A DNA stretch of 64,000 nt, taken from NCBI GenBank assembly GCA_964016885.1, contig OZ024741.1, positions 15,438,001 to 15,502,000 on the forward strand, read 5' to 3'. The translations under genes and the position numbers were made by a program. The first letter of the stretch is position 1. Each line of letters begins with the position of its first letter. The notes under the pieces were generated by a model. That model had not been told where the DNA came from, made no database searches, and saw only the letters and a program-made list of their open reading frames with translations. Positions 1 to 60,400 of this stretch are shown here, piece after piece. Source of the DNA: Eledone cirrhosa. Lineage: Eukaryota.

Positions 1-3000
1 CATCAAAACACAGCAATTGCAACAGCAACAACAATAACTGCAACAATAGCATCAATAACACAGCAATTGCAACAGCAGCAACAACAACTGCAACAGCAGC
101 ATCAATAATACAACAATTGCAACAGCAGCAACAACAACAACTGAAACAGTAGCATCAATAACACAGCAATTGCAACAGCAGCAACAACAACTGCAACAGT
201 AGCATCAATAACACAGCAATTGCAACAGCAACAACAACAACTGCAACAGTAGCATCAATAACACAGCAATTGCAACAGCAGCCACAACAACAACTGCAAC
301 AGTAGCATCAATAACACAACAATTGCAACAGCAGCAACAACAACAACTGCAACAGTAGCATCAATAACAAAGCAATTGCAACAGCAGCAGCAACAACAAC
401 TGCAACAGTAGCATCAATAACACAGCAATTGCAACAGCAGCCACAACAACAACTGCAACAGTAGCATCAATATCACAGCAATTGCAACAGCAGCAGCAAC
501 AACAACTGCAACAGTAGCATCAATAACACAGCAATTGCAACAGCAGCAACAACAACAACTGCAACAGTAGCATCAATAACACAGCAATTGCAACAGCAGC
601 AGCAACAACAACTGCAACAGTAGCATCAATAACACAGCAATTGCAACAGCAGCAACAACAACAACTGCAACAGTAGCATCAATAACACAGCAATTGCAAC
701 AGCAGCAACAACAACAACTGCAACAGTAGCATCAATAACACAGAAATTGCAACAGCAGCCACAACAACAACTGCAACAGTAGCATCAATATCACAGCAAT
801 TGCAACAGCAGCAACAACAACAACTGCAACAGTAGCATCAATATCACAGCAATTGCAACAGCAGCAACAACAATAACGGAAACAGTAGCATCAATAACAC
901 AGCAATTGCAACAGCAGCAGCAACAACAACTGCAACAGAAACATCAATAACACAGCAATTGCACAGCAGCAACAACATCTGCAACAGTAGCATCAATAAC
1001 ACAGCAATTGCAACAGCAGCAACAACAACAACTGAAACAGTAGCATCAATAACGCAGCAATTGCAACAGCAGCAACAACATCTGCAACAGTAGCATCAAT
1101 AACACAGCAATTGCAACAGCAGCAACAACAACAACTGCAGCAGTAGCATCAATAACACAGCAATTGCAACTGCAGAAACAACAACAACTGCAACAGTTGC
1201 ATCAATAACACAGCAATTGCAACAGCAGCAACAACAACAACTGCAGCAGTAGCATCAATAACACAGCAATTGCAACTGCAGAAACAACAACAACTGCAAC
1301 AGTTGCATCAATAACACAGCAATTGCAACAGCAGCAACAACAACAACTGCAGCAGTAGCATCAATAACACAGCAATTGCAACAGCAGCAACAACAACATC
1401 TGCAACAGTAGCATCAATAACACAGCAATTGCAACAGCAGCAACAACAACAACTGCAGCAGTAGCATCAATAACACAGCAATTGCAACTGCAGAAACAAC
1501 AACAACTGCAACAGTAGCATCAATAACACAGCAATTGCAACAGCAGCAACAACAACAACTGCAGCAGTAGCATCAATAACACAGCAATTGCAACTGCAGA
1601 AACAACAACAACTGCAACAGTTGCATCAATAACACAGCAATTGCAACAGCAGCAACAACAACAACTGCAGCAGTAGCATCAATAACACAGCAATTGCAAC
1701 TGCAGAAACAACAACAACTGCAACAGTAGCATCAATAACACAGCAATTGCAACAGCAGCAGCAACAACAACTGCAACAGTAGCTTCAATAACACAGCAAT
1801 TGCAACAGCAGCAACAACAACAACTGCAACAGTAGCATCAATAACACAGCAATTGCAACAGCAACAACAACACCAACTGCAACAGTAGCATCAATAACAC
1901 AGCAATTGCAACAGCAGCAACAACAACTGCAACAGCAGCATCAATAACACAGCAATTGCAACAGCAGCAACAACAACTGCAACAGCAGCATCAATAACAC
2001 AGCAATTGCAACAGCAGCAACAACAATAATTGCAACAGTAGCATCAATAACACAGCAATTGCAACAGCAGCAACAACAACTGCATCAGTAGCATCAATAA
2101 CACAGCAATTGCAACAGCAGCAACAACAACAACTGAAACAGTAGCATCAATAACACAGCAACTGCAACAGCAGCAACAACAACAACTGAAACAGTAGCAT
2201 CAATAACACAGCAATTGCAACAGCAGCAACAACAACAACTGAAACAGTAGCATCAATATCACAGCAATTGCAACAGCAGCAACAACAACTGCAACAGCAG
2301 CATCAATAACACAACAATTGCAACAGCAGCAACAACAACAACTGAAACAGTAGCATCAATAACACAGCAATTGCAACAGCAGCAACAACAACTGCAACAG
2401 CAGCATCAATAACACAGCAATTGCAACAGCAGCAACAACAATAATTGCAACAATAGCATCAATAACACAGCAATTGCAACAGCAGCAACAACAACTGCAA
2501 CAGCAGCATCAATAACACAACAATTGCAACAGCAGCAACAACAACAACTGAAACAGTAGCATCAATAACACAGCAATTGCAACAGCAGCAACAACAACAA
2601 CTGCAACAGTAGCATCAATAACAGGGCAATTGCAACAGCAGCAACAACAACAACCGCAACAGTAGCATCAATAACAGAGCAATTGCAACAGCAGCAACAA
2701 CACCAACTGCAACAGTAGCAACAATAACACAGCAATTGCAACAGCAACAACAACAACTGCAACAGTAGCATCAATAACACAGCAATTGCAACAGCAGCAA
2801 CAACAACAACTGCAACAGAAGCATCAATATCACAGCAATTGCAACAGCAGCAACAACAATAACTGCAACAGAAGCATCAATAACACAGCAATTGCAACAG
2901 CAGCAGCAACAACAACTGCAACAGTAGCATCAATAACAAAGCAATGGCAACAGCAGCAACAACAACAACTGCAACAGTAGCATCAATAACACAGCAATTG

Positions 3001-4488
3001 CAACAGCAGCAGCAACAACAACTGCAACAGTAGCATCAATAATAAAGCAATTGCAACAGCAGCAACAACAACAACTGCAACAGTAGCATCAATAACAAAG
3101 CAATTGCAACAGCAGCAACAACAACAACTGCAACAGTAGCATCAATAACACAGCAATTGCAACAGCAGCAGCAACAACAACTGCAACAGTAGCATCAATA
3201 ACAAAGCAATTGCAACAGCAGCAACAACAACAACTGCAACAGTAGCATCAATAACACAGCAATTGCAACAGCAGCAGCAACAACAACTGCAACAGTAGCA
3301 TCAATAACAAAGCAATTGCAACAGCAGCAACAACAACAACTGCAACAGTTGCATCAATAACACAGCAATTGCAACAGCAGCAGCAACAACAACTGCAACA
3401 GTAGCATCAATAATACAGCAATTGCAACAGCAGCAACAACAACAACTGCAACAGTAGCATCAATAACACAGCAATTGCAACAGCAGCAGCAACAACAACT
3501 GCAACAGTAGCATCAATAACAAAGCAATTGCAACAACAGCAACAACAACAACTGCAACAGTAGCATCAATAACACAGCAATTGCAACAGCAAGAACAACA
3601 ACTGCAACAGTAGCATCAATAACACAGCAATTGCAACAGCAGCAACAACAACAACTGCAAGAGTAGCATCAATAACACAGCAATTGCAACAGCAGCAACA
3701 ACTACAACTGCAACAGTAGCATCAATAACACAGCAATTGCAACAGCAGCAACAACAACAACTGCAACAGTATCATCGATAACACAGCAATTGCAACAGCA
3801 GCAACAACAACAACTGCAACAGTATCATCAATAACACATCAATTGCAACAGCAGCAACAACAACTGCAACAGTAGCATCAATAACACAGCAATTTCAACA
3901 GCAACAACAACAACTGCAACAGTAGCATCAATAACACAGCAATTGCAACAGCAGAAACAACAACAACTGCAACAGTTGCATCAATAACACGGCAATTGCA
4001 ACAGCAGCAACAACAACTGCAACAGTAGCATCAATAACACAGCAATTGCAACAGCAACAACAATAACTGCAACAGTAGCATCAATAACACAGCAATTGCA
4101 ACAGCAGCAACAACAACTGCAACAGCAGCATCAATAACACAACAATTGCAACAGCAGCAACAACAACAACTGAAACAGTAGCATCAATAACACAGCAATT
4201 GCAACAGCAGCAACAACAACTGCAACAGTAGCATCAATAACACAGCAATTGCAACAGCAACAACAACAACTGCAACAGTAGCATCAATAACACAGCAATT
4301 GCAACAGCAGCAACAACAACAACTGCAACAGTAGCATCAATATCACAGCAATTGCAACAGCAGCAGCAACAACAACTGCAACAGTAGCATCAATAACACA
4401 GCAATTGCAACAGCAGTAACAACAACAACTGCAACAGTAGCATCAATAACACAGCAATTGCAACAGCAGCAACAACAACAACTGCAAC
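1..4488. repeat. Tandem satellite, 53-bp unit (50-bp variants), roughly 85 copies, runs off the window start
   Basis: Unit GCATCAATAACACAGCAATTGCAACAGCAGCAACAACAACAACTGCAACAGTA; length varies by one CAA. Confidence 0.97.
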
Positions 4489-4622: not shown

Positions 4623-4693
4623 CGCGTGTTGGTGTAATGGTAACACATTGGTCCGGCAAACCAAAGACTTGGGTTCGTGTCCCATGTACGTCA
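4623..4693 (+). pseudogene. tRNA-like sequence (tRNA pseudogene or SINE head), apparent anticodon GGC
   Basis: D arm GTGT-AATGGTA-ACAC, anticodon arm TTGGT-CCGGCAA-ACCAA, T arm TGGG-TTCGTGT-CCCA; acceptor stem is degenerate; T6 run at about 4704-4709. Confidence 0.6.
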
Positions 4694-6168: not shown

Positions 6169-6264
6169 ACTGCCCCAAAAAGATAATGAAATGCGTCTAC
6201 AGCTAAACAGCCCACTTTATGTAATTTTCAAATATCAGCAAAACAAGCCAGAGAATTTCCACAA

Positions 6265-9730: not shown

Positions 9731-9977
9731 GTAAGTATGCATGTATACGTACATACATATATGTATACAGACGTACAGTAGCATGCATATATATATATAT
9801 ATATATACATATATACATACATATGCATACAGGTACACATACATATATGCACGTATCAGTTTAGCGGCGCTTATTATAACGTCGCTTTGTTCGTTTGTAA
9901 ACAAACTGAACAGCCTGAATTTATGCCATACGGTGTTAAGGCAACCACGTCACCTTTTTGTTCAACACTGACACAGG

Positions 9978-10022
9978 AACGATGTACTAGTTTCAAGCTT
10001 GTTAGCTATCATCAGCACCGTT
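9978..10022 (-). ncRNA. Type-I hammerhead ribozyme (inverted unit)
   Basis: Exact reverse complement of 10268-10312. Confidence 0.85.
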
Positions 10023-10267
10023 TACCCATCTGCCAGATAGTTGAACGTTCGAAAGTATATACTTTCCTTATGAAAATTAACGGCTGAGCAGCCTAATTTG
10101 CATATTGAGTGAGTTAAATCGGTCAGGCATACCGAAAACGATAAATTGAAACAAAATGAAAACGAAATTTCATTTCTCACTCTTAGTATGGCACTTACTT
10201 GTTAAGCCGTTAATTTTCATAAGGAAAGTATATACTTTCGAACGTTCAACTATCTGGCAGATGGGTA

Positions 10268-10312
10268 AACGGTGCTGATGATAGCTAACAAGCTTGAAAC
10301 TAGTACATCGTT
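10268..10312 (+). ncRNA. Type-I minimal hammerhead ribozyme, predicted cleavage after GUA (10305)
   Basis: AACGGTG-CTGATGA-TAGC taacaa GCTT-GAAA-CTAGTA-CATCGTT: 7-bp helix I, palindromic helix III ACTAGT. Confidence 0.88.
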
Positions 10313-10742
10313 CCTGTGTCAGTGTTGAACAAAAAGGTGACGTGGTTGCCTTAACACCGTATGGCATAAATTCAGGCTGTTCAGTTTGTTTACAAACGAA
10401 CAAAGCGACGTTATAATAAGCGCCGCTAAACTGATACGTGCTATATGTATGTGTACCTGTATGCATATGTATGTATATATGTATATATATATATATATAT
10501 ATATGCATGCTACTGTACGTCTGTATACATATATGTATGTACGTATACATGCATACTTACATTTAAGTAAGTGCCATACTAAGAGTGAGAAATGAAATTT
10601 CGTTTTCATTTTGTTTCAATTTATCGTTTTCGGTATGCCTGACCGATTTAACTCACTCAATATGCAAATTAGGCTGCTCAGCCGTTAATTTTCATAAGGA
10701 AAGTATATACTTTCGAACGTTCAACTATCTGGCAGATGGGTA

Positions 10743-10787
10743 AACGGTGCTGATGATAGCTAACAAGCTTGAAACTAGTACATCGTT
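10743..10787 (+). ncRNA. Type-I minimal hammerhead ribozyme, predicted cleavage after 10780
   Basis: Identical to 10268-10312. Confidence 0.88.
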
Positions 10788-11214
10788 CCTGTGTCAGTGT
10801 TGAACAAAAAGGTGACGTGGTTGCCTTAACACCGTATGGCATAAATTCAGGCTGTTCAGTTTGTTTACAAACGAACAAAGCGACGTTATATTAAGCGCCG
10901 CTAAACTGATACGTGCATATATGTATGTGTACCTGTATGCATATGTATGTATATATGTATATATATATATATATATGCATGCTACTGTACGTCTGTATAC
11001 ATATATGTATGTACGTATACATGCATACTTACATTTAAGTAAGTGCCATACTAAGAGTGAGAAATGAAATTTCGTTTTCATTTTGTTTCAATTTGTCGTT
11101 TTCGGTATGCCTGACCGATTTAACTCACTCAATATGCAAATTAGGCTGCTCAGCCGTTAATTTTCATAAGGAAAGTATATACTTTCGAACGTTCAACTAT
11201 CTGGCAGATGGGTA

Positions 11215-11259
11215 AACGGTGCTGATGATAGCTAACAAGCTTGAAACTAGTACATCGTT
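11215..11259 (+). ncRNA. Type-I minimal hammerhead ribozyme, predicted cleavage after 11252
   Basis: Identical to 10268-10312. Confidence 0.88.
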
Positions 11260-11592
11260 CCTGTGTCAGTGTTGAACAAAAAGGTGACGTGGTTGCCTTA
11301 ACACCGTATGGCATAAATTCAGGCTGTTCAGTTTGTTTACAAACGAACAAAGCGACGTTATATTAAGCGCCGCTAAACTGATACGTGCATATATGTATGT
11401 GTACCTGTATGCATATGTATGTATATATGTATATATATATATATATATGCATGCTACTGTACGTCTGTATACATATATGTATGTACGTATACATGCATAC
11501 TTACATTTAAGTAAGTGCCATACTAAGAGTGAGAAATGAAATTTCGTTTTCATTTTGTTTCAATTTATATATATATATATATATATATATAT

Positions 11593-25100: not shown

Positions 25101-25244
25101 AATTCCATATATGGTCAAAGTGATTGTCAAAAGTCAGTAGTAATTCTGTGATTGCAAATTAGTAGGGGAGATGGTGGCTAAACCTGCCAGTAGGAGAAAG
25201 AGGGGAGGGGGTGGAGTAGACCCAATCAAGCGTTGGTAGTGCCA

Positions 25245-25969
25245 TTAGCGGAACCAGCAGGAGACACCGCCGCTCACGCAATGTAACATGGTTCAATCCT
25301 CCCCACAACGCAGAGGTGACAACTCCCATCGGGGAACTATTCTTTAGGCTCATTGAAAAACACTTCCCACTACAACACCGCTACCACAACATAATTAACA
25401 AAAATACCATCAAACTCTCTTACAGCACTACACCAAACTTCGCACAAAACATCGTCTCCTCTAACAACAAAAAACTCAACCCCGATGGCAGAAATAACCT
25501 AAATAGCAGTGGAGAACCGACCAGGAGGTGTAACTGTCCGGATAGATCCATTTGCCCACTCGACAATAGATGCAGAGACCGTAATGTGATCTACCAGTGC
25601 AACGTGAGAACGGATACCTCCAACAAAGCCTATATAGGACTTACCGCATGTGACTTCAAGACCCGGCTATACCAACATAGACATACCTTCCGAAACCCAG
25701 CCCGGCGTCACGCCACTACACTTTCGGGCCACATATGGGACCTCAAGGACAACAACATCACCTATGATCTCACTTGGAGATTACTGTCCAGAGCCAATTC
25801 TTACACGGGAGGACGCCGTCCGTGCAATTTATGCTCGGAGGAAACTTTACAAATGCTGTTTTCGACGGACCAACTCCTAAACAAGAAAGATGAACTGGTT
25901 ACTGCATGTAAACATAGATTGCGTAGGACTTACCTCGCCCTCAAACCCCATAATGACCCAGGGGGGTAG
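25245..25969 (+). pseudogene. PLE linker plus GIY-YIG endonuclease (open frame, 5'-truncated)
   Basis: RNVTWFNPP, KHFP, IKLSYS, CNCPDRSICPLDNRC, NVIYQC...AYIGLT...FKTRLYQH, CNLCSEE, LLNKKDE. Confidence 0.9.
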
Positions 25970-33689: not shown

Positions 33690-33692
<3 letters not shown>

Positions 33693-33850
33693 CTGAAGAT
33701 TGCGAAAGCATGAAAGTACTTGTTCAATTAACACTTAGAATTTAATATTCTATCATACTATTTCATTATAATACCATTATATATATTTTAAAGGATTGTA
33801 AATAAAACGAGTAAATCAGACAAAGTTGGAATTCCTCTTATTAATATAAT
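33690..33850 (+). mobile_element. Single truncated family K copy starting inside HHR helix I (HHR 33690-33724)
   Basis: Matches 37581-37738. Confidence 0.8.
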
Positions 33851-33893
33851 CTTCTATACACAATCATACACACTCGTGTATATTTACCTATCT

Positions 33894-36725: not shown

Positions 36726-36761
36726 TCTTTTGATGAAGGACTAGCGTCCGAAACGTTAAGA
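36726..36761 (+). ncRNA. Minimal hammerhead ribozyme (family I), C3U
   Basis: TCTT-TTGATGA-A-GGAC tagc GTCC-GAAA-CGTT-AAGA; a truncated relative starts near 4947 (GTCCGAAAC...). Confidence 0.7.
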
Positions 36762-37103: not shown

Positions 37104-37133
37104 TCGTTGTATATGTATATATATACATATATA

Positions 37134-37261
<128 letters not shown>

Positions 37262-37312
37262 TATATAGATAGGTAAATATACACGGGTGTGTATGATTGT
37301 GTATAGAAGATT

Positions 37313-37738
37313 ATATTAATAAGAGGAATTCCAACTTTGTCTGATTTACTCGTTTTATTTACAATCTCGTTTTATTTACAATCCAACTGTGTTGAAAATT
37401 GCAAACTCGACTGTCACCACATATCATGAACCTGAAGATTGCGAAAGCATGAAAGTACTTGTTCAAGTTGAAAATTGCAAACTCGACTGTCACCACATAT
37501 CATGAACCTGAAGATTGCGAAAGCATGAAAGTACTTGTTCAAGTTGAAAATTGCAAACTCGACTGTCACCACATATCATGAACCTGAAGATTGCGAAAGC
37601 ATGAAAGTACTTGTTCAATTAACACTTAGAATTTAATATTCTATCATACTATTTCATTATAATACCATTATATATATTTTAAAGGATTGTAAATAAAACG
37701 AGTAAATCAGACAAAGTTGGAATTCCTTTTATTAATAT
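37313..37738 (+). mobile_element. Family K element: short inverted arm, three exact 76-bp units (37391-37618) and 3' region
   Basis: Units start at 37391, 37467 and 37543; 37313-37364 is the reverse complement of about 37686-37737. Confidence 0.88.
37427..37617 (+). ncRNA. Three tandem minimal hammerhead ribozymes (37427-37465, 37503-37541, 37579-37617)
   Basis: TGAAC-CTGAAGA-TTGC gaaa GCAT-GAAA-GTACTT-GTTCA; palindromic helix III AAGTACTT; CUU triplet. Confidence 0.83.
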
Positions 37739-37759
37739 ATATATATATATACATATATA

Positions 37760-37830
<71 letters not shown>

Positions 37831-53519: not shown

Positions 53520-54420
53520 ATGAGCCTCACACCTCCACTCAACGTGATGGAGAAGGCGCTCTGTTGCGCGGTGACATACCGTATTATTTGAATCACGTTG
53601 GGTTTAGCGGGATACCGAGTTCCAAATACAAATAACTTCTAATTTGCGCCTAGGTACAAATTAAAACCGTATCGCCTAAGGCAAAAAAGTGAGGCAGTGA
53701 ACATTACGTTCGGAACCCTTAAAGAAGCCAGGGGACACGGCCTAGTACCACTAAGAAGCTATGAGGTGTCTCTGGTGCCATCGTATTGTAGCTACAGTCA
53801 ATGTGACCCAGACGCCGCCCACAATAGCCTTGGCAGGTAGCAGCTGCCCTCATAGACTTTGAGAAAACCACACGAGTATTAGACGTCCAGAAAATTAAAC
53901 AAGAAAATTGGACCATTTCCGATGTAATAGACCTTGTAGTCGGCACACAACTTACTATAACCTTGGAGGGCAGGAAGCTAAAATGTCATATGTTTAACAT
54001 AGAAACACACCTCAGGGCTTTCTGCATACAGCAAACCACGAAGGAGGAAAGGCCCCTTCATCTTTTAACACCGAATTCCACAAAAAAGCAACAAACCCAC
54101 CATCGGCAACAATAAGTGCAATAACATCAGATCCAGCGTCAACAACAGCAGCAGTTACACCAGAAAGAGCACCACCAGCTAAACAGACACCTCAAGAAAC
54201 ACCACCACCACCAATAACAACACCAATACCCGGGGGAAATGTGCCCTTCCCCTACCTCAAACAGTTCGACATAGATTATGACATGGGTAAACACGGGCAA
54301 ACTGACTGCCGCAATAACAACAAAAAAATGCGAAAAAGAGGGTGAAAAATAAATGAAAGCTAACACCGGGAAGCAACTAAAGCAAACTCCTACAACCTGG
54401 CCATCATCATCACTACAAAC
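53520..54420 (+). pseudogene. Possible decayed non-LTR retrotransposon ORF1 (gag-like)
   Basis: TITLEGRKLKCHMFNIETHLRAFC near 53954-54025 resembles a CX2CX4HX4C knuckle with one Cys lost; followed by P/T/Q-rich sequence. Confidence 0.4.
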
Positions 54421-57400
54421 ACCAACGCCAGCAACTCCACCAACACCACCAACCACCAACACCACCAACACCACCAACCCCACCAACACCACCAACAACA
54501 CCAACCCCACCAACATCAAAAACACCACAAACACCACCAACCCCACCATCCCCACCAACACCACCAACACCAACACCACCAACACCTCCAACACGAACAC
54601 CACCAACACCACCAACACCAACACCACAAACACTACCCACACCACCAACACCACCAACACCACCAACACCACCAACACCAACACCACCAACACTACCCAC
54701 ACCACAAACACCACCAACCCCACCATCCCCACCAACACCACCAACACCAACACCACCAACACCACCAACACCAACACCACCAACACCACCAACACCAACA
54801 CAACCAATACCACCAACACCACCAACACCAACACCACCAACACCACCAACACCAACACCACCAACACCACCAACACCACCAACACCAACACCAACACCAA
54901 CACCACCAACACCAACACCACCAACACCACCAACACCACCAACACCAACACCACCAACACCACCAACACCAACACCACCAACACCACCAACACCACCAAC
55001 ACCAACACCAACACCAACACCAACACCACCAACACCACCAACACCACCAACACCACCAACACCACCAACACCACCAACACCAACACCACCAACACCCCCA
55101 ACACCACCAACACCAACACCACCAAAACCACCAACACCACCAATATCACCAACACTAACAACACCACCAACACCAACACCACCAACACCACCAAAACCAC
55201 CAACACCAACACCACCAACACCACCAACACCACCAACACCAACACGACCAACACCACCAACACCACCAACACCAACACCACCAACACCACCAACACCAAC
55301 ACCACCAACACCACCAACACCACCAACACCACCAACACCACCAACCCCACGAAACCCACCAACAACACCAACAACCCCACCAACACCACCAACACCACCA
55401 ACACTACCCCCACCCCCACCCCCACCACCCCACCAACACCACCAACACCGCCAACACAACCAACACCAACACCACCAACACCACCAACACCACCAACACC
55501 ACCAACACCACCAACACCAACACCACCAACACCACCAACAGCAACACCACCAACACCACCAACACCACCAACACCACCAACACCAGCACTACCAACACCA
55601 CCAACACCAACACCAACACCACTAACACCAACACCACCAACACCACCAACACCACCAACACCACCAACACCAACACCACCAACACCACCAACACCACCAA
55701 CACCACCAACACCAACAACACAAACACCAACGCCACCAACACCACCAACACCAACACCACCAAAACCACCAACACCACCAACACCAACACCACCAATACC
55801 ACCACCACCAACACCACCAACACCACCAACACCAACACCACCAACACCACCAACACCACCAACACCACCAACACCACCAAAACCAACACCACCAACACCA
55901 CCAACACCACCAACACCAACACCACCAACACCACCAACACCAACACCACCAACACCACCAACACCACCAACACCACCAACACCACCAACACCAACACCAC
56001 CAACACCACCAACACCACCAACACCAACACCACCAACACCACCAACACCAACACCACCAACACCACCAACACCACCAACACCAACACCAACACCAACACC
56101 ACCAACACCACCAACACCACCAACACCACCAACACCACCAACACCACCAACACCAACACCACCAACAACCCCAACACCACCAACACCAACACCACCAAAA
56201 CCACCAACACCACCAATACCACCAACACCAACACCAACAACACCACCAACACCAACACCACCAACACCACCAAAACCACCAACACCTACAACACCAACAC
56301 CACCAACACCACCAACACCAACACGACCAACACCACCAACACCACCAACACCAACACCACCAACACCACCAACACCAACACCACCAACACCACCAACACC
56401 ACCAACACCACCAACACCACCAACCCCACGAAACCCACCAACAACACCAACAACCCCACCAACACCACCAACACCACCAACACCACCAACACCACCAACA
56501 CCAATACCACCACCAACAGCAACACCACCAACACCACCAACACCACCAACACCACCAACACCAGCACCACCAACACCACCAACACCAACACCAACACCAC
56601 TAACACCAACACCACCAACACCACCAACACCACCAACACCACCAACACCAACACCACCAACACCACCAACACCACCAACACCACCAACACCACCAACACC
56701 AACAACACAAACACCAACGCCACCAACACCACCAACACCAACACCACCAAAACCACCAACACCACCAACACCAACACCACCAATACCACCAACACCAACA
56801 CCACCAACACCACCAACACCAACACCACCAACACCACCAACACCACCAACACCACCAACACCACCAAAACCAACACCACCAACACCACCAACACCACCAA
56901 CACCAACACCACCAACACCACCAACACCAACACCACCAACACCACCAACACCACCAACACCACCAACACCACCAACACCAACACCACCAACACCACCAAC
57001 ACCACCAACACCAACACCACCAACACCACCAACACCAACACCACCAACACCACCAACACTACCAACACCAACACCAACACCAACACCACCAACACCACCA
57101 ACACCACCAACACCACCAACACCAACACCACCAACACCACCAACACCACCAACACCACCAACACCACCAACACCAACAACACAAACACCAACGCCACCAA
57201 CACCACCAACACCAACACCACCAAAACCACCAACACCACCAACACCAACACCACCAATACCACCACCACCAACACCACCAACACCACCAACACCAACACC
57301 ACCAACACCACCAACACCACCAACACCACCAACACCACCAAAACCAACACCACCAACACCACCAACACCACCAACACCAACACCACCAACACCACCAACA

Positions 57401-60400
57401 CCAACACCACCAACACCACCACCAACACCACCAACACCACCAACACCACCAACACCAACACCACCAACACCACCAACACCACCAACACCAACACCACCAA
57501 CACCACCAACACCAACACCACCAACACCACCAACACCACCAACACCAACACCAACACCAACACCACCAACACCACCAACACCACCAACACCACCAACACC
57601 ACCAACACCACCAACACCAACACCACCAACACCCCCAACACCACCAACACCAACACCACCAAAACCACCAACACCACCAATACCACCAACACCAACACCA
57701 ACAACACCACCAACACCAACACCACCAACACCACCAAAACCACCAACACCTACAACACCAACACCACCAACACCACCAACACCAACACGACCAACACCAC
57801 CAACACCACCAACACCAACACCACCAACACCACCAACACCAACACCACCAACACCACCAACACGAACACCACGAACACCACCAACACCACCAACACCAAC
57901 ACCACCAGCACCACCAACACCACCAACACCAACACCACCAACACCACCAACACAAACACCACCAACACCACCAACACCCCCAACACCACCAACACTACCC
58001 ACACCACCAACACCACCAACACCACCAACACCACCAACACCACCAACACCAACACCACCAACACCACCAACACCCCCAACACCACCAACACCAACACCAA
58101 CACCAACACCACCAACACCACCAAAACCACCAACACCAACACCACCAACACCACCAACACCACCAACACCAACACGACCAACACCACCAACACCACCAAC
58201 ACCAACACCACCAACACCACCAACACCAACACCACCAACACCACCAACACCACCAACACCACCAACACCACCAACCCCACGAAACCCACCAACAACACCA
58301 ACAACCCCACCAACACCACCAACACCACCAACACCACCAACACTACCCCCACCGCCACCCCCACCACCCCAACAACACCACCAACACCGCCAACACCTCC
58401 AACACCACCAACACCACCAACACCACCAACACCACCAACACCACCAACACCAACACCACCAACACCACCAACAGCAACACCACCAACACCACCAACACCA
58501 CCAACATCACCAACACCAGCACCACCAACACCACCAACACCAGCACCAACACCACTAACACCAACACCACCAACACCACCAACACCACCAACACCACCAA
58601 CACCAACACCACCAACACCACCAACACCACCAACACCACCAACACCACCAACACCACCAACGCCAACAACACAAACACCAACGCCACCAACACCACCAAC
58701 ACCAACACCACCAAAACCACCAACACCACCAACACCAACACCACCAATACCACCAACACCAACACCACCAACACCACCAACACCAACACCACCAACACCA
58801 CCAACACCACCAACACCACCAACACCAACACCAACCCCACGAACACCACGAACACCACCAACACCAACACCACCAACAGCACCAACACCACCAACATCAC
58901 CAACACCAACACCACCAACACCACCAACACCAACACCACCAACACCACCAACACCACCAACAACACCAAAAGGAACACCACCAACACCACCAACACCACC
59001 AACACCAACACCACCAACACCACCAACACCAACACCACCAACACAACCAACACCACCAACACCACCACCACCAACACCACCAACACCACCAACACCAACA
59101 CCACCAACACCACCAACACCAACACCACGAACACCACCAACACCACCAACACCAACACCACCAACACCACCAACACCACCAACACCAACACCACCAACAC
59201 CACCAACACCACCAACACCACCAACACCACCAACACCAACACCACCAATACCACCAACACCAACACCACCAACACCACCAACAACACAAACACCACCAAC
59301 ACCACAAACACCACCAACACCAACACCAACACCACCAACACCACCAACACCACCAACACCACCAACACCACCAACACCAACACCACCAACACCAACACCA
59401 CCAACACCACCAACACCACCAACACCACCAACACCACCAACACCACCAACACCACCAACACTACCCCCTCCAATACCACCAACACCAACACCAACACCAA
59501 CACGACCAACACCACCAACACCACCAACATCACCAACACCAACACCACCAACACCACCAACACCACCAACACCAACACCACCAACACTACCAACACCACC
59601 AACACCACCAACAGCAACACCACCAACACCACCAACACCACCAACACCACCAACACCACCAACACCACCAACACCAACACCACCAACACCACCAACACCA
59701 CCAACACCAACACCACTAACACCACCAACACCACCAGCACCAACACCACCAACACCACCAACACCACCAGCACCAACACCACCAACACCACCAACACCAC
59801 CAACACCAACACCACCAACACTACCAACACCACCAACACCACCAACACCAACACCACCAACACCACCAACACCACCAACACCACCAACACCACCAACACC
59901 AACACCACCAACACCACCAACACCACCAACACCAACACCACCAACACCACCAACACCACCAGCACCAACACCACCAACACCACCAACACCACCAGCACCA
60001 ACACCACCAACACCACCAACACCACCAACACCAACACCACCGACACCACCAACACCACCAACACCAACACCACCAACACCACCAACACCACCAACACCAC
60101 CAACACCACCAACACCAACACCACCAACACCACCAACACCACCAACACCAACACCACCAACACCACCAACACCACCAGCACCAACACCACCAACACCACC
60201 AACACCACCAACACCAACACCACCAACACCACCAACACCAACACCACCAACACCACTAACACCACCAACATCACCAACACCAACACCACCAACACCACCA
60301 ACACCACCAACACCAACACCACCAACACCACCAACACCACCAACACCACCAACACCACCAACACCACCAACACCAACACCACCAACACCACCAACACCAC

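What the first reader, a model, noticed from the sequence alone, without database searches (positions are those of the whole stretch)
37313..37738. Three exact 76-bp repeats, each little more than a hammerhead
Seen: units at 37391, 37467 and 37543 each contain TGAAC-CTGAAGA-TTGC(GAAA)GCAT-GAAA-GTACTT-GTTCA, so about half the unit is ribozyme. Cleavage would release 76-nt monomers. The copy at 33690 has one HHR and starts inside helix I. Inference: either an unusually small retrozyme or circle, or RT template-jump triplication that supplies the partner a minimal HHR needs to cleave as a dimer.
Basis: partly seen in the sequence, partly recalled or inferred. Interest (0 to 1): 0.75.

Follow-up and report, generated by a model that had tools for sequence, protein, structure and literature searches.

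The report
One-off hammerhead triplication in Penelope copy
Three identical 76-base repeats, each holding a predicted self-cutting RNA, lie inside one copy of a very common jumping gene, and their exact joint occurs at no other place in this genome, so they are likely a copying stutter rather than a new tiny RNA parasite.

Summary
The trimer is real in the assembly: three identical 76-bp units, each with a 39-nt minimal hammerhead (CUU site). It is not a free element. It lies in the right arm of a young, two-armed, protein-free copy of a Penelope-like retrotransposon (Neptune-type RT/GIY-YIG parent), between duplicated target sequence. Seven other close direct pairs each have their own spacing. 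The unit starts at the family's 5' hot spot, 31 nt behind a TATA box (likely the RNA start), and ends at helix I, not at the cut site. Best reading: the reverse transcriptase ran off the RNA's 5' end and re-entered at +34, probably twice. A tandem can fold as a double hammerhead, but this copy lacks the promoter and no RNA data were available. By-product: head-to-head joints pile up at the predicted cut (38 of 49; 114 joints against 18 and 14 in control windows), a fossil sign that this ribozyme cuts in vivo. The scan reported similar cut-site scars and true retrozymes for other families of this genome.

The parts
37117..37214 (.). Left copy of the duplicated target: interrupted AT motif plus (TA)n tract
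   Evidence: A 24-mer at 37120 recurs only at 37746 in the window; exact borders are blurred by the microsatellite
37215..37267 (-). (GA)n and TA run at the end of the element's tail; simple-repeat extension, assignment to the element inferred
   Evidence: other copies end in similar TC/TA runs
37268..37366 (-). Left, inverted arm: family positions +199 to +101, carrying the 44-nt optional tail
   Evidence: 100% match to a real family copy
37367..37383 (-). 17-bp local duplication (family +117 to +101)
37384..37390 (-). 7-nt inverted piece of the family's 5' end (-38 to -44) at the head-to-head joint
   Evidence: sequence; the same joint type is listed
37391..37466 (+). Unit 1 (family -41 to +34); hammerhead 37427-37465, predicted cut 37460/37461
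37467..37542 (+). Unit 2; hammerhead 37503-37541, predicted cut 37536/37537
37543..37618 (+). Unit 3, continuous with the rest of the right arm; hammerhead 37579-37617, predicted cut 37612/37613
37619..37739 (+). Rest of the right arm (family +35 to +155), without tail
   Evidence: 99% to a real family copy
37740..37824 (.). Right copy of the duplicated target
33690..33892 (+). Separate solo copy of the same family (-3 to +199), 5' end inside helix I, with tail

Best explanation
The trimer is a locus-unique internal repeat in one young, protein-free copy of a Penelope-like retrotransposon, likely made by the element's reverse transcriptase while the copy was being inserted. Numbering is from the C of the core CUGAAGA. 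Shown: the family's short copies mostly begin at -44 to -41, 31 nt behind a TATA box, and end at +155 or +199; this copy has two head-to-head arms and a duplicated target; the unit runs from -42/-41 to +33/+34 with one shared base. Inferred: the pLTR promoter makes a short RNA (-44 to about +199); the parent's GIY-YIG nuclease cuts a (TA)n target; the RT primes at +155, copies to the RNA's 5' end, re-enters a template just past helix I (+34) using one base of homology, and repeats that move once more before the two arms are joined. The repeat is predicted to allow a double-hammerhead fold if transcribed, but that is a side effect: the copy has no promoter of its own and has not spread.
For: 5,901 exact cores genome-wide against 2 joints, both here; no other direct pair at 20-50 nt gap; 7 other loci at 51-260 nt gap, each with its own spacing: 93, 99, 129, 193, 214, 233, 234, 4 of the 7 restarting at -39 to -43. 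50 of 100 unselected arms begin at -47 to -37, 20 at -44 (one edge-cut row dropped from 101). 1,310 head-to-head joints at that site. TATA box 31 nt upstream. Parent with RT, CX4CxxC linker and GIY-YIG, 99% identical to the repeat. The same insertion carries other synthesis scars: 17-bp duplication, 7-nt inverted piece, and arms that differ at +147, where 46 of 47 other pairs agree. Template jumping at template ends is documented for the R2 RT (PMC4117753, passages).
Against: One locus, one haplotype: a second identical jump cannot be told from later DNA slippage. Two independent jumps to the same base are not expected, since the other seven loci all differ. Template jumping is shown for R2, not for a Penelope RT in anything read here. 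The RNA start at -44 is inferred from DNA ends only. All genome counts are exact-match patterns and miss diverged copies.
Confidence: 0.6

Rival explanations
1. One RT jump made a dimer at insertion; the third unit (or, less likely, both extra units) arose later by DNA slippage or unequal exchange, as in ordinary minisatellite birth.
For: Identical register is what slippage on an existing repeat gives; the neighbourhood is full of expanding simple repeats; the preprint 10.64898/2026.07.22.740005 (parts 1-3 of 5 read) proposes local amplification of pLTR pieces.
Against: The copy is very young (about one base from intact full-length copies), leaving little time; none of the seven other close pairs shows a third unit in register; slippage alone would not pick the RNA start as a border with only 1 nt of homology.
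Confidence: 0.22
2. A 76-nt RNA circle (start joined to the end of helix I) was the template and was copied round twice: the birth of a very small retrozyme.
For: Rolling on a circle explains identical register without repeated jumps; a tandem transcript is predicted to pair the helix III palindromes (probability 0.95-1.0 in a two-unit RNA); earlier scan notes propose circle copying for other families of this genome (not tested here).
Against: The joint is not at the ribozyme cut, and no splice donor lies at +34, so no known route makes the first circle; no second locus; this copy lacks the TATA box; helix II has no G10.1-C11.1 pair and U17 is predicted to pair with A14 (0.81 and 0.51), with the outer helix I at 0.05.
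Confidence: 0.1
3. The repeat is an assembly or sequencing artefact at a palindromic, microsatellite-flanked locus.
For: Perfect identity of the units; hairpin loci are hard to assemble.
Against: A novel joint with a biologically meaningful border, a clean target duplication, and comparable but different rearrangements at seven other loci.
Confidence: 0.05

Closest known systems
[quoted passage not shown] 2021, PMC8557442, passages)
   Same: Minimal type I hammerhead with palindromic helix III, thousands of dispersed solo copies, opposite-strand pairs 100-700 bp apart, 5' truncation, inverted 5' copy, optional tail, (TA)n targets, C-terminal GIY-YIG with CX2-5CxxC linker.
   Different: Here helix II is only 3 bp and lacks G10.1-C11.1, the site is CUU, and one copy carries a 76-bp triplication. 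The papers had no in vivo sign of cleavage; this family shows joints piled at the predicted cut.
Animal non-LTR retrozymes (Cervera and de la Pena 2020, PMC7229834, abstract and passages; Li et al., bioRxiv 10.64898/2026.07.22.740005, parts 1-3 of 5)
   Same: Head-to-tail units with one type I hammerhead each, non-coding, derived from pLTR sequence. The preprint's pipeline would probably count it, and lists consensus lengths from 51 to 972 bp, so 76 bp is not a record by that definition.
   Different: Validated retrozymes are 170-400 nt, carry canonical ribozymes, recur at many loci and are expressed as circles; this unit recurs nowhere and is embedded in ordinary pLTR sequence.
Anole Poseidon element PAc in vitro (Frangieh et al. 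2024, PMC11167929, parts 1-2 of 4)
   Same: Two RT start sites that define the tail, both target strands cut and extended, AT-rich targets, uncut RNA as main template; fits the +155/+199 ends and the one-tail pairs (12 of 14).
   Different: That study found no RNA reads ending at the hammerhead cut and did not describe re-entry repeats; different PLE clade.
R2 RT end-to-end template jumping (PMC4117753, passages)
   Same: Jump at the template's 5' end with little or no homology.
   Different: R2 jumps to the free end of another template; here the landing point is internal to the family sequence, at the base of helix I.

Membership tests
Penelope-like element, EN+ (short non-autonomous copy) | Sequence belongs to the pLTR of an element coding RT plus GIY-YIG | tested here: met
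   99% identity to pLTRs flanking a 775-aa frame; Pfam GIY-YIG above cut-off, RVT_1 at E 2.9e-06 but just under cut-off
Penelope-like element, EN+ (short non-autonomous copy) | Inverted 5' copy and tail on one arm only | tested here: met
   Left arm to +199, right arm to +155; 12 of 14 full pairs have one tail
Penelope-like element, EN+ (short non-autonomous copy) | Insertion in AT-rich or microsatellite target | tested here: met
   (TA)n on both sides with a duplicated unique 24-mer
Neptune clade | CX2-5CxxC linker before a C-terminal GIY-YIG | tested here: met
   CX4CxxC at residue 650; shared with Nematis according to PMC8557442
Neptune clade | Placement in the RT tree | not tested
   No reference set of clade members was at hand
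Minimal type I hammerhead | Core CUGANGA, GAAA, UH, helices I and II, palindromic helix III | tested here: met
   Pattern scan; core nearly invariant in 81 ungapped copies
Minimal type I hammerhead | G10.1-C11.1 pair at the base of helix II | tested here: not met
   U/U mismatch then U-A; PMC4209133 lists the G-C pair as highly conserved
Minimal type I hammerhead | Self-cleavage as a dimer | not testable with these tools
   Indirect only: joints at the predicted cut; fold of the two-unit RNA
Non-LTR retrozyme | Two or more tandem units each with a type I hammerhead | tested here: met
Non-LTR retrozyme | The same monomer register dispersed at many loci | tested here: not met
   2 joints, both here, of 5,901 cores
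Non-LTR retrozyme | Monomer of about 170-400 nt with canonical ribozyme | tested here: not met
   76 nt, minimal ribozyme; range from PMC7229834 abstract
Non-LTR retrozyme | Expressed as linear and circular RNA | not testable with these tools
   No RNA run was offered

The most novel reading that the evidence does not exclude
The trimer is a fossil of reiterative copying by a Penelope reverse transcriptase, the sister group of telomerase: the enzyme reached the 5' boundary of its RNA, reset to the base of the hammerhead and copied the same 76 nt again, and in one step turned a solo pLTR into an array able to cut itself into 76-nt units. That would be a retrozyme caught at birth.
Probability: 0.12. 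Interest if true: 0.65.

Novelty: new member of a known kind. Interest (0 to 1): 0.25.

Why it matters
As a single locus it matters little: it is one of a handful of scrambled copies among thousands. It is a tidy natural example of the first step that the retrozyme-from-pLTR hypothesis needs (a hammerhead-bearing piece put in tandem), and a ready-made 1x/2x/3x test of whether a CUU minimal hammerhead with a 3-bp helix II cuts as a dimer. The family behind it is more informative than the trimer: its joints mark a likely RNA start and the predicted ribozyme cut, which bears on the open question whether Penelope hammerheads cleave in vivo.

Tried and rejected
Genome search with the 76-bp unit as DNA found nothing, not even the locus itself: uninformative, replaced by patterns. 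Rfam at gathering threshold: no hammerhead. Monomer and circle folds are no more stable than shuffles (z 0.6 to 1.3). Sequencing runs: no RNA holder listed. Laying contigs and reads: the family is abundant in runs X1-X4, X8 and X20, X15 gave no reads, and no listed piece bridges the joint; these are filtered contigs or reduced-representation reads of possibly other individuals, so this shows nothing either way. Idea that the two arms of a pair are usually copied from two different RNAs: rejected, arms agree at diagnostic sites in 62 of 62, 54 of 55, 46 of 47 and 35 of 36 pairs (one further site gave no data through a pattern error, and the column count was misregistered and redone). Simple fold-back with the tail arm always first: not supported, the arm reaching further 5' has the tail in 6 of 15. 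Back-splicing as source of the joint: no GT donor after +34 in the parent. Ligation of a start-to-cut fragment (70-nt unit): would have matched and did not. Bacterial promoter scan: not applicable. Lunse et al. 2017 could not be read; known only from its title and a review passage. No supplements were read; those of PMC4209133 and the preprint may list similar short tandems. Searches for a published description listed no paper on this family or on reiterative copying by a Penelope RT; only listings were seen for most hits.

Full report
Observation. The three units at 37391, 37467 and 37543 are identical over 76 bp. Each holds a minimal type I hammerhead of 39 nt: helix I of 5 bp, core CTGAAGA, a U/U mismatch, a 3-bp helix II with a GAAA loop, GAAA, the palindrome AGTACT as the whole of helix III, U17, and the 3' arm of helix I. 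The predicted cut follows CUU (numbering and cut rule from established hammerhead knowledge; NUH rule and GUC as best site in PMC2238771, passages). Rfam does not call it at gathering threshold. The copy at 33690 begins three bases before the core. Positions below are counted from the C of the core; the cut is between +28 and +29.

Anatomy of the insertion. Against a real family copy the locus reads: inverted arm +199 to +101 (37268-37366), a 17-bp repeat of +117 to +101, an inverted 7-nt piece of -38 to -44, then -41 to +34, -42 to +34, -42 to +155. A 24-mer at 37120 recurs only at 37746, so the interrupted (TA)n target is duplicated on both sides. The surroundings are microsatellites and transposon debris; no host gene was recognised among frames of 120 aa or more between 20000 and 54000 (read by eye).

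The family. The 29-nt core has 5,901 exact matches in the 3.0-Gb genome. Long copies carry a promoter-like stretch and, upstream of it, a 775-aa frame with RT motifs, a CX4CxxC linker and a GIY-YIG domain. This, the inverted 5' copies, the optional tail and the (TA)n targets are the described marks of Penelope-like elements of the Neptune/Nematis type (PMC8557442, passages; PMC3846280, passages); no tree was built. The window's right arm is about one base from intact full-length copies, so the insertion is young.

Where copies begin. Of the first 100 arms on contig C1, chosen by a motif downstream of the ribozyme, 50 begin at -47 to -37, 20 of them at -44; 27 extend further upstream, 19 begin between -36 and +26, 2 at +27 to +31 and 3 later (one search gave 101 rows; one of the 19 is an extra row cut by a locus edge, and older copies may stop early through divergence). 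A TATA box starts 31 nt before -44. Genome-wide there are 1,310 head-to-head joints at this site and 1,393 exact read-through copies. I infer that -44 is the RNA start and that short pLTR transcripts are the commonest template. The 76-bp unit starts exactly at this hot spot.

Is the register a family? No. The joint has 2 matches, both here. Direct pairs with a gap of 20-50 nt: only here. With 51-260 nt: this locus and seven others, with spacings 93, 99, 129, 193, 214, 233 and 234; only the 93 is a clean head-to-tail repeat, the others hold inverted or foreign pieces or a whole short copy. None shows three units in register. These are exact-match counts. The same window holds the contrast: a 472-bp array with one hammerhead per unit at 10205-11568, and earlier scan notes describe 310-, 467- and 520-600-bp families at thousands of sites (not tested here).

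How it likely arose. Read along the first cDNA strand the right arm goes +155 to -42, back to +34, to -42, back to +34, to -41. The jump uses one shared A. The donor is the inferred RNA end; the landing point is the first base past helix I, 5-6 nt beyond the cut, so it is not a ribozyme product. R2 RT jumps at template ends with such scant homology (PMC4117753, passages). An anole Penelope protein cuts and extends both target strands and starts at two sites that bracket the tail (PMC11167929, parts 1-2 of 4); this fits pairs with one tail (12 of 14) whose arms share diagnostic bases (62 of 62, 54 of 55, 46 of 47, 35 of 36). The arms of this locus differ at +147, a common variant site (136 C, 71 T), a weak hint of a second template. 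I commit to re-entry during insertion (0.6). One jump with later DNA slippage (0.22), a circular template (0.1) and artefact (0.05) remain.

Would it cut? A two-unit RNA has the double-hammerhead topology as its lowest-energy fold (-18.0 kcal/mol), with the palindromes paired at 0.95-1.0. Against activity: A14-U17 pairs form at 0.81 and 0.51, the outer helix I at only 0.05, and in the whole element helix I stays at or below 0.36 while units 1 and 3 pair. Published minimal hammerheads cut poorly even as dimers or trimers (PMC4209133, parts 1-2 of 4); 8 of 9 frog dimers did not cut (bioRxiv 10.64898/2026.07.22.740005, parts 1-3 of 5). The copy has lost the TATA box, so it depends on read-through. 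No RNA run was available.

By-product: a sign of cleavage in the family. Head-to-head joints near the cut number 114, against 18 and 14 in two control windows of the same gap size but different anchors. In the first 49 distinct ones the longer arm begins at +27 to +31 in 38; the perfect 8-bp palindrome just upstream draws 3. One is the centre of a 9-kb palindrome of two full-length elements (L065). A 4-bp self-complement at +28 may help capture these joints, and 15 of the 38 need a one-base slip, so this is a fossil indication, not proof. It shows that cut-site ends arise without any 76-bp tandem. The anole study found no reads at its cut site; an earlier scan note reports similar scars in another family of this genome.

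Comparison and verdict. It works like the first step proposed for retrozyme birth from a pLTR, and the preprint's pipeline (units of 51-972 bp) would probably list it; it fails the tests of dispersal and of size and ribozyme type of validated retrozymes (170-400 nt, PMC7229834, abstract and passages). It is a member of a known kind, a rearranged short Penelope-like copy. Interest 0.25. The boldest reading left open is telomerase-like reiterative copying that creates a self-cutting array in one step (0.12); the literature searches made here listed no paper showing this for a Penelope RT, on listings only.

Noticed in passing
G000, 114 joints; e.g. L138-L187: Head-to-head joints of this family pile up at the predicted hammerhead cut (38 of 49 at +27 to +31; control windows 18 and 14): a fossil sign of in vivo cleavage at a CUU minimal hammerhead.
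   Followed up: yes
G000, 1,310 joints: A large population of roughly 440-bp hairpin mini-elements centred on the likely RNA start of the pLTR; they look like MITEs but are retro-copies.
   Followed up: partly
L065:6237-6328 (motif at about 6252-6258); also L066, L228-L234: The parent keeps two overlapping frames in all long copies examined (476 aa stop to stop without Pfam match, then 775 aa RT-EN in the -1 frame), with a T TTT TTA heptamer at the overlap, as for a -1 frameshift. PMC8557442 Fig. 1 legend notes frameshifted ORF1 in some PLE types.
   Followed up: partly
L065:410-9100: 9-kb palindrome of two full-length elements joined head to head at the ribozyme cut site.
   Followed up: partly
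window 10205-11568 and about 9900-10200: 472-bp tandem array (2.9 copies) with one hammerhead per unit and an inverted copy to its left; looks like a true retrozyme family.
   Followed up: no
window 29177 (+), 34991 (-), 52930 (-), 53073 (+): Further minimal hammerheads of other families found by the pattern scan; two more candidates by eye near 36731 and 36885.
   Followed up: no
window 33690-33892: A second copy of the family only 3.4 kb away, where the genome average is about one core per 500 kb; independent insertion into the same TA-rich area or local hop.
   Followed up: partly
window 25220-25969: 249-aa frame that looks by eye like the C-terminal GIY-YIG part of another Penelope-like element.
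   Followed up: no
window 4623-4693: tRNA-like Rfam match, 43.3 bits, with several non-standard pairs.
   Followed up: no
window 1-4488 and about 54000-60000: A 53-bp CAA/CAG-rich array of 86 copies, and a 6-kb stretch with extreme A and C strand skew.
   Followed up: no
run X4 (organism B): Contigs of a differently labelled organism carry a diverged form of the family, so it predates or crosses a species boundary.
   Followed up: no
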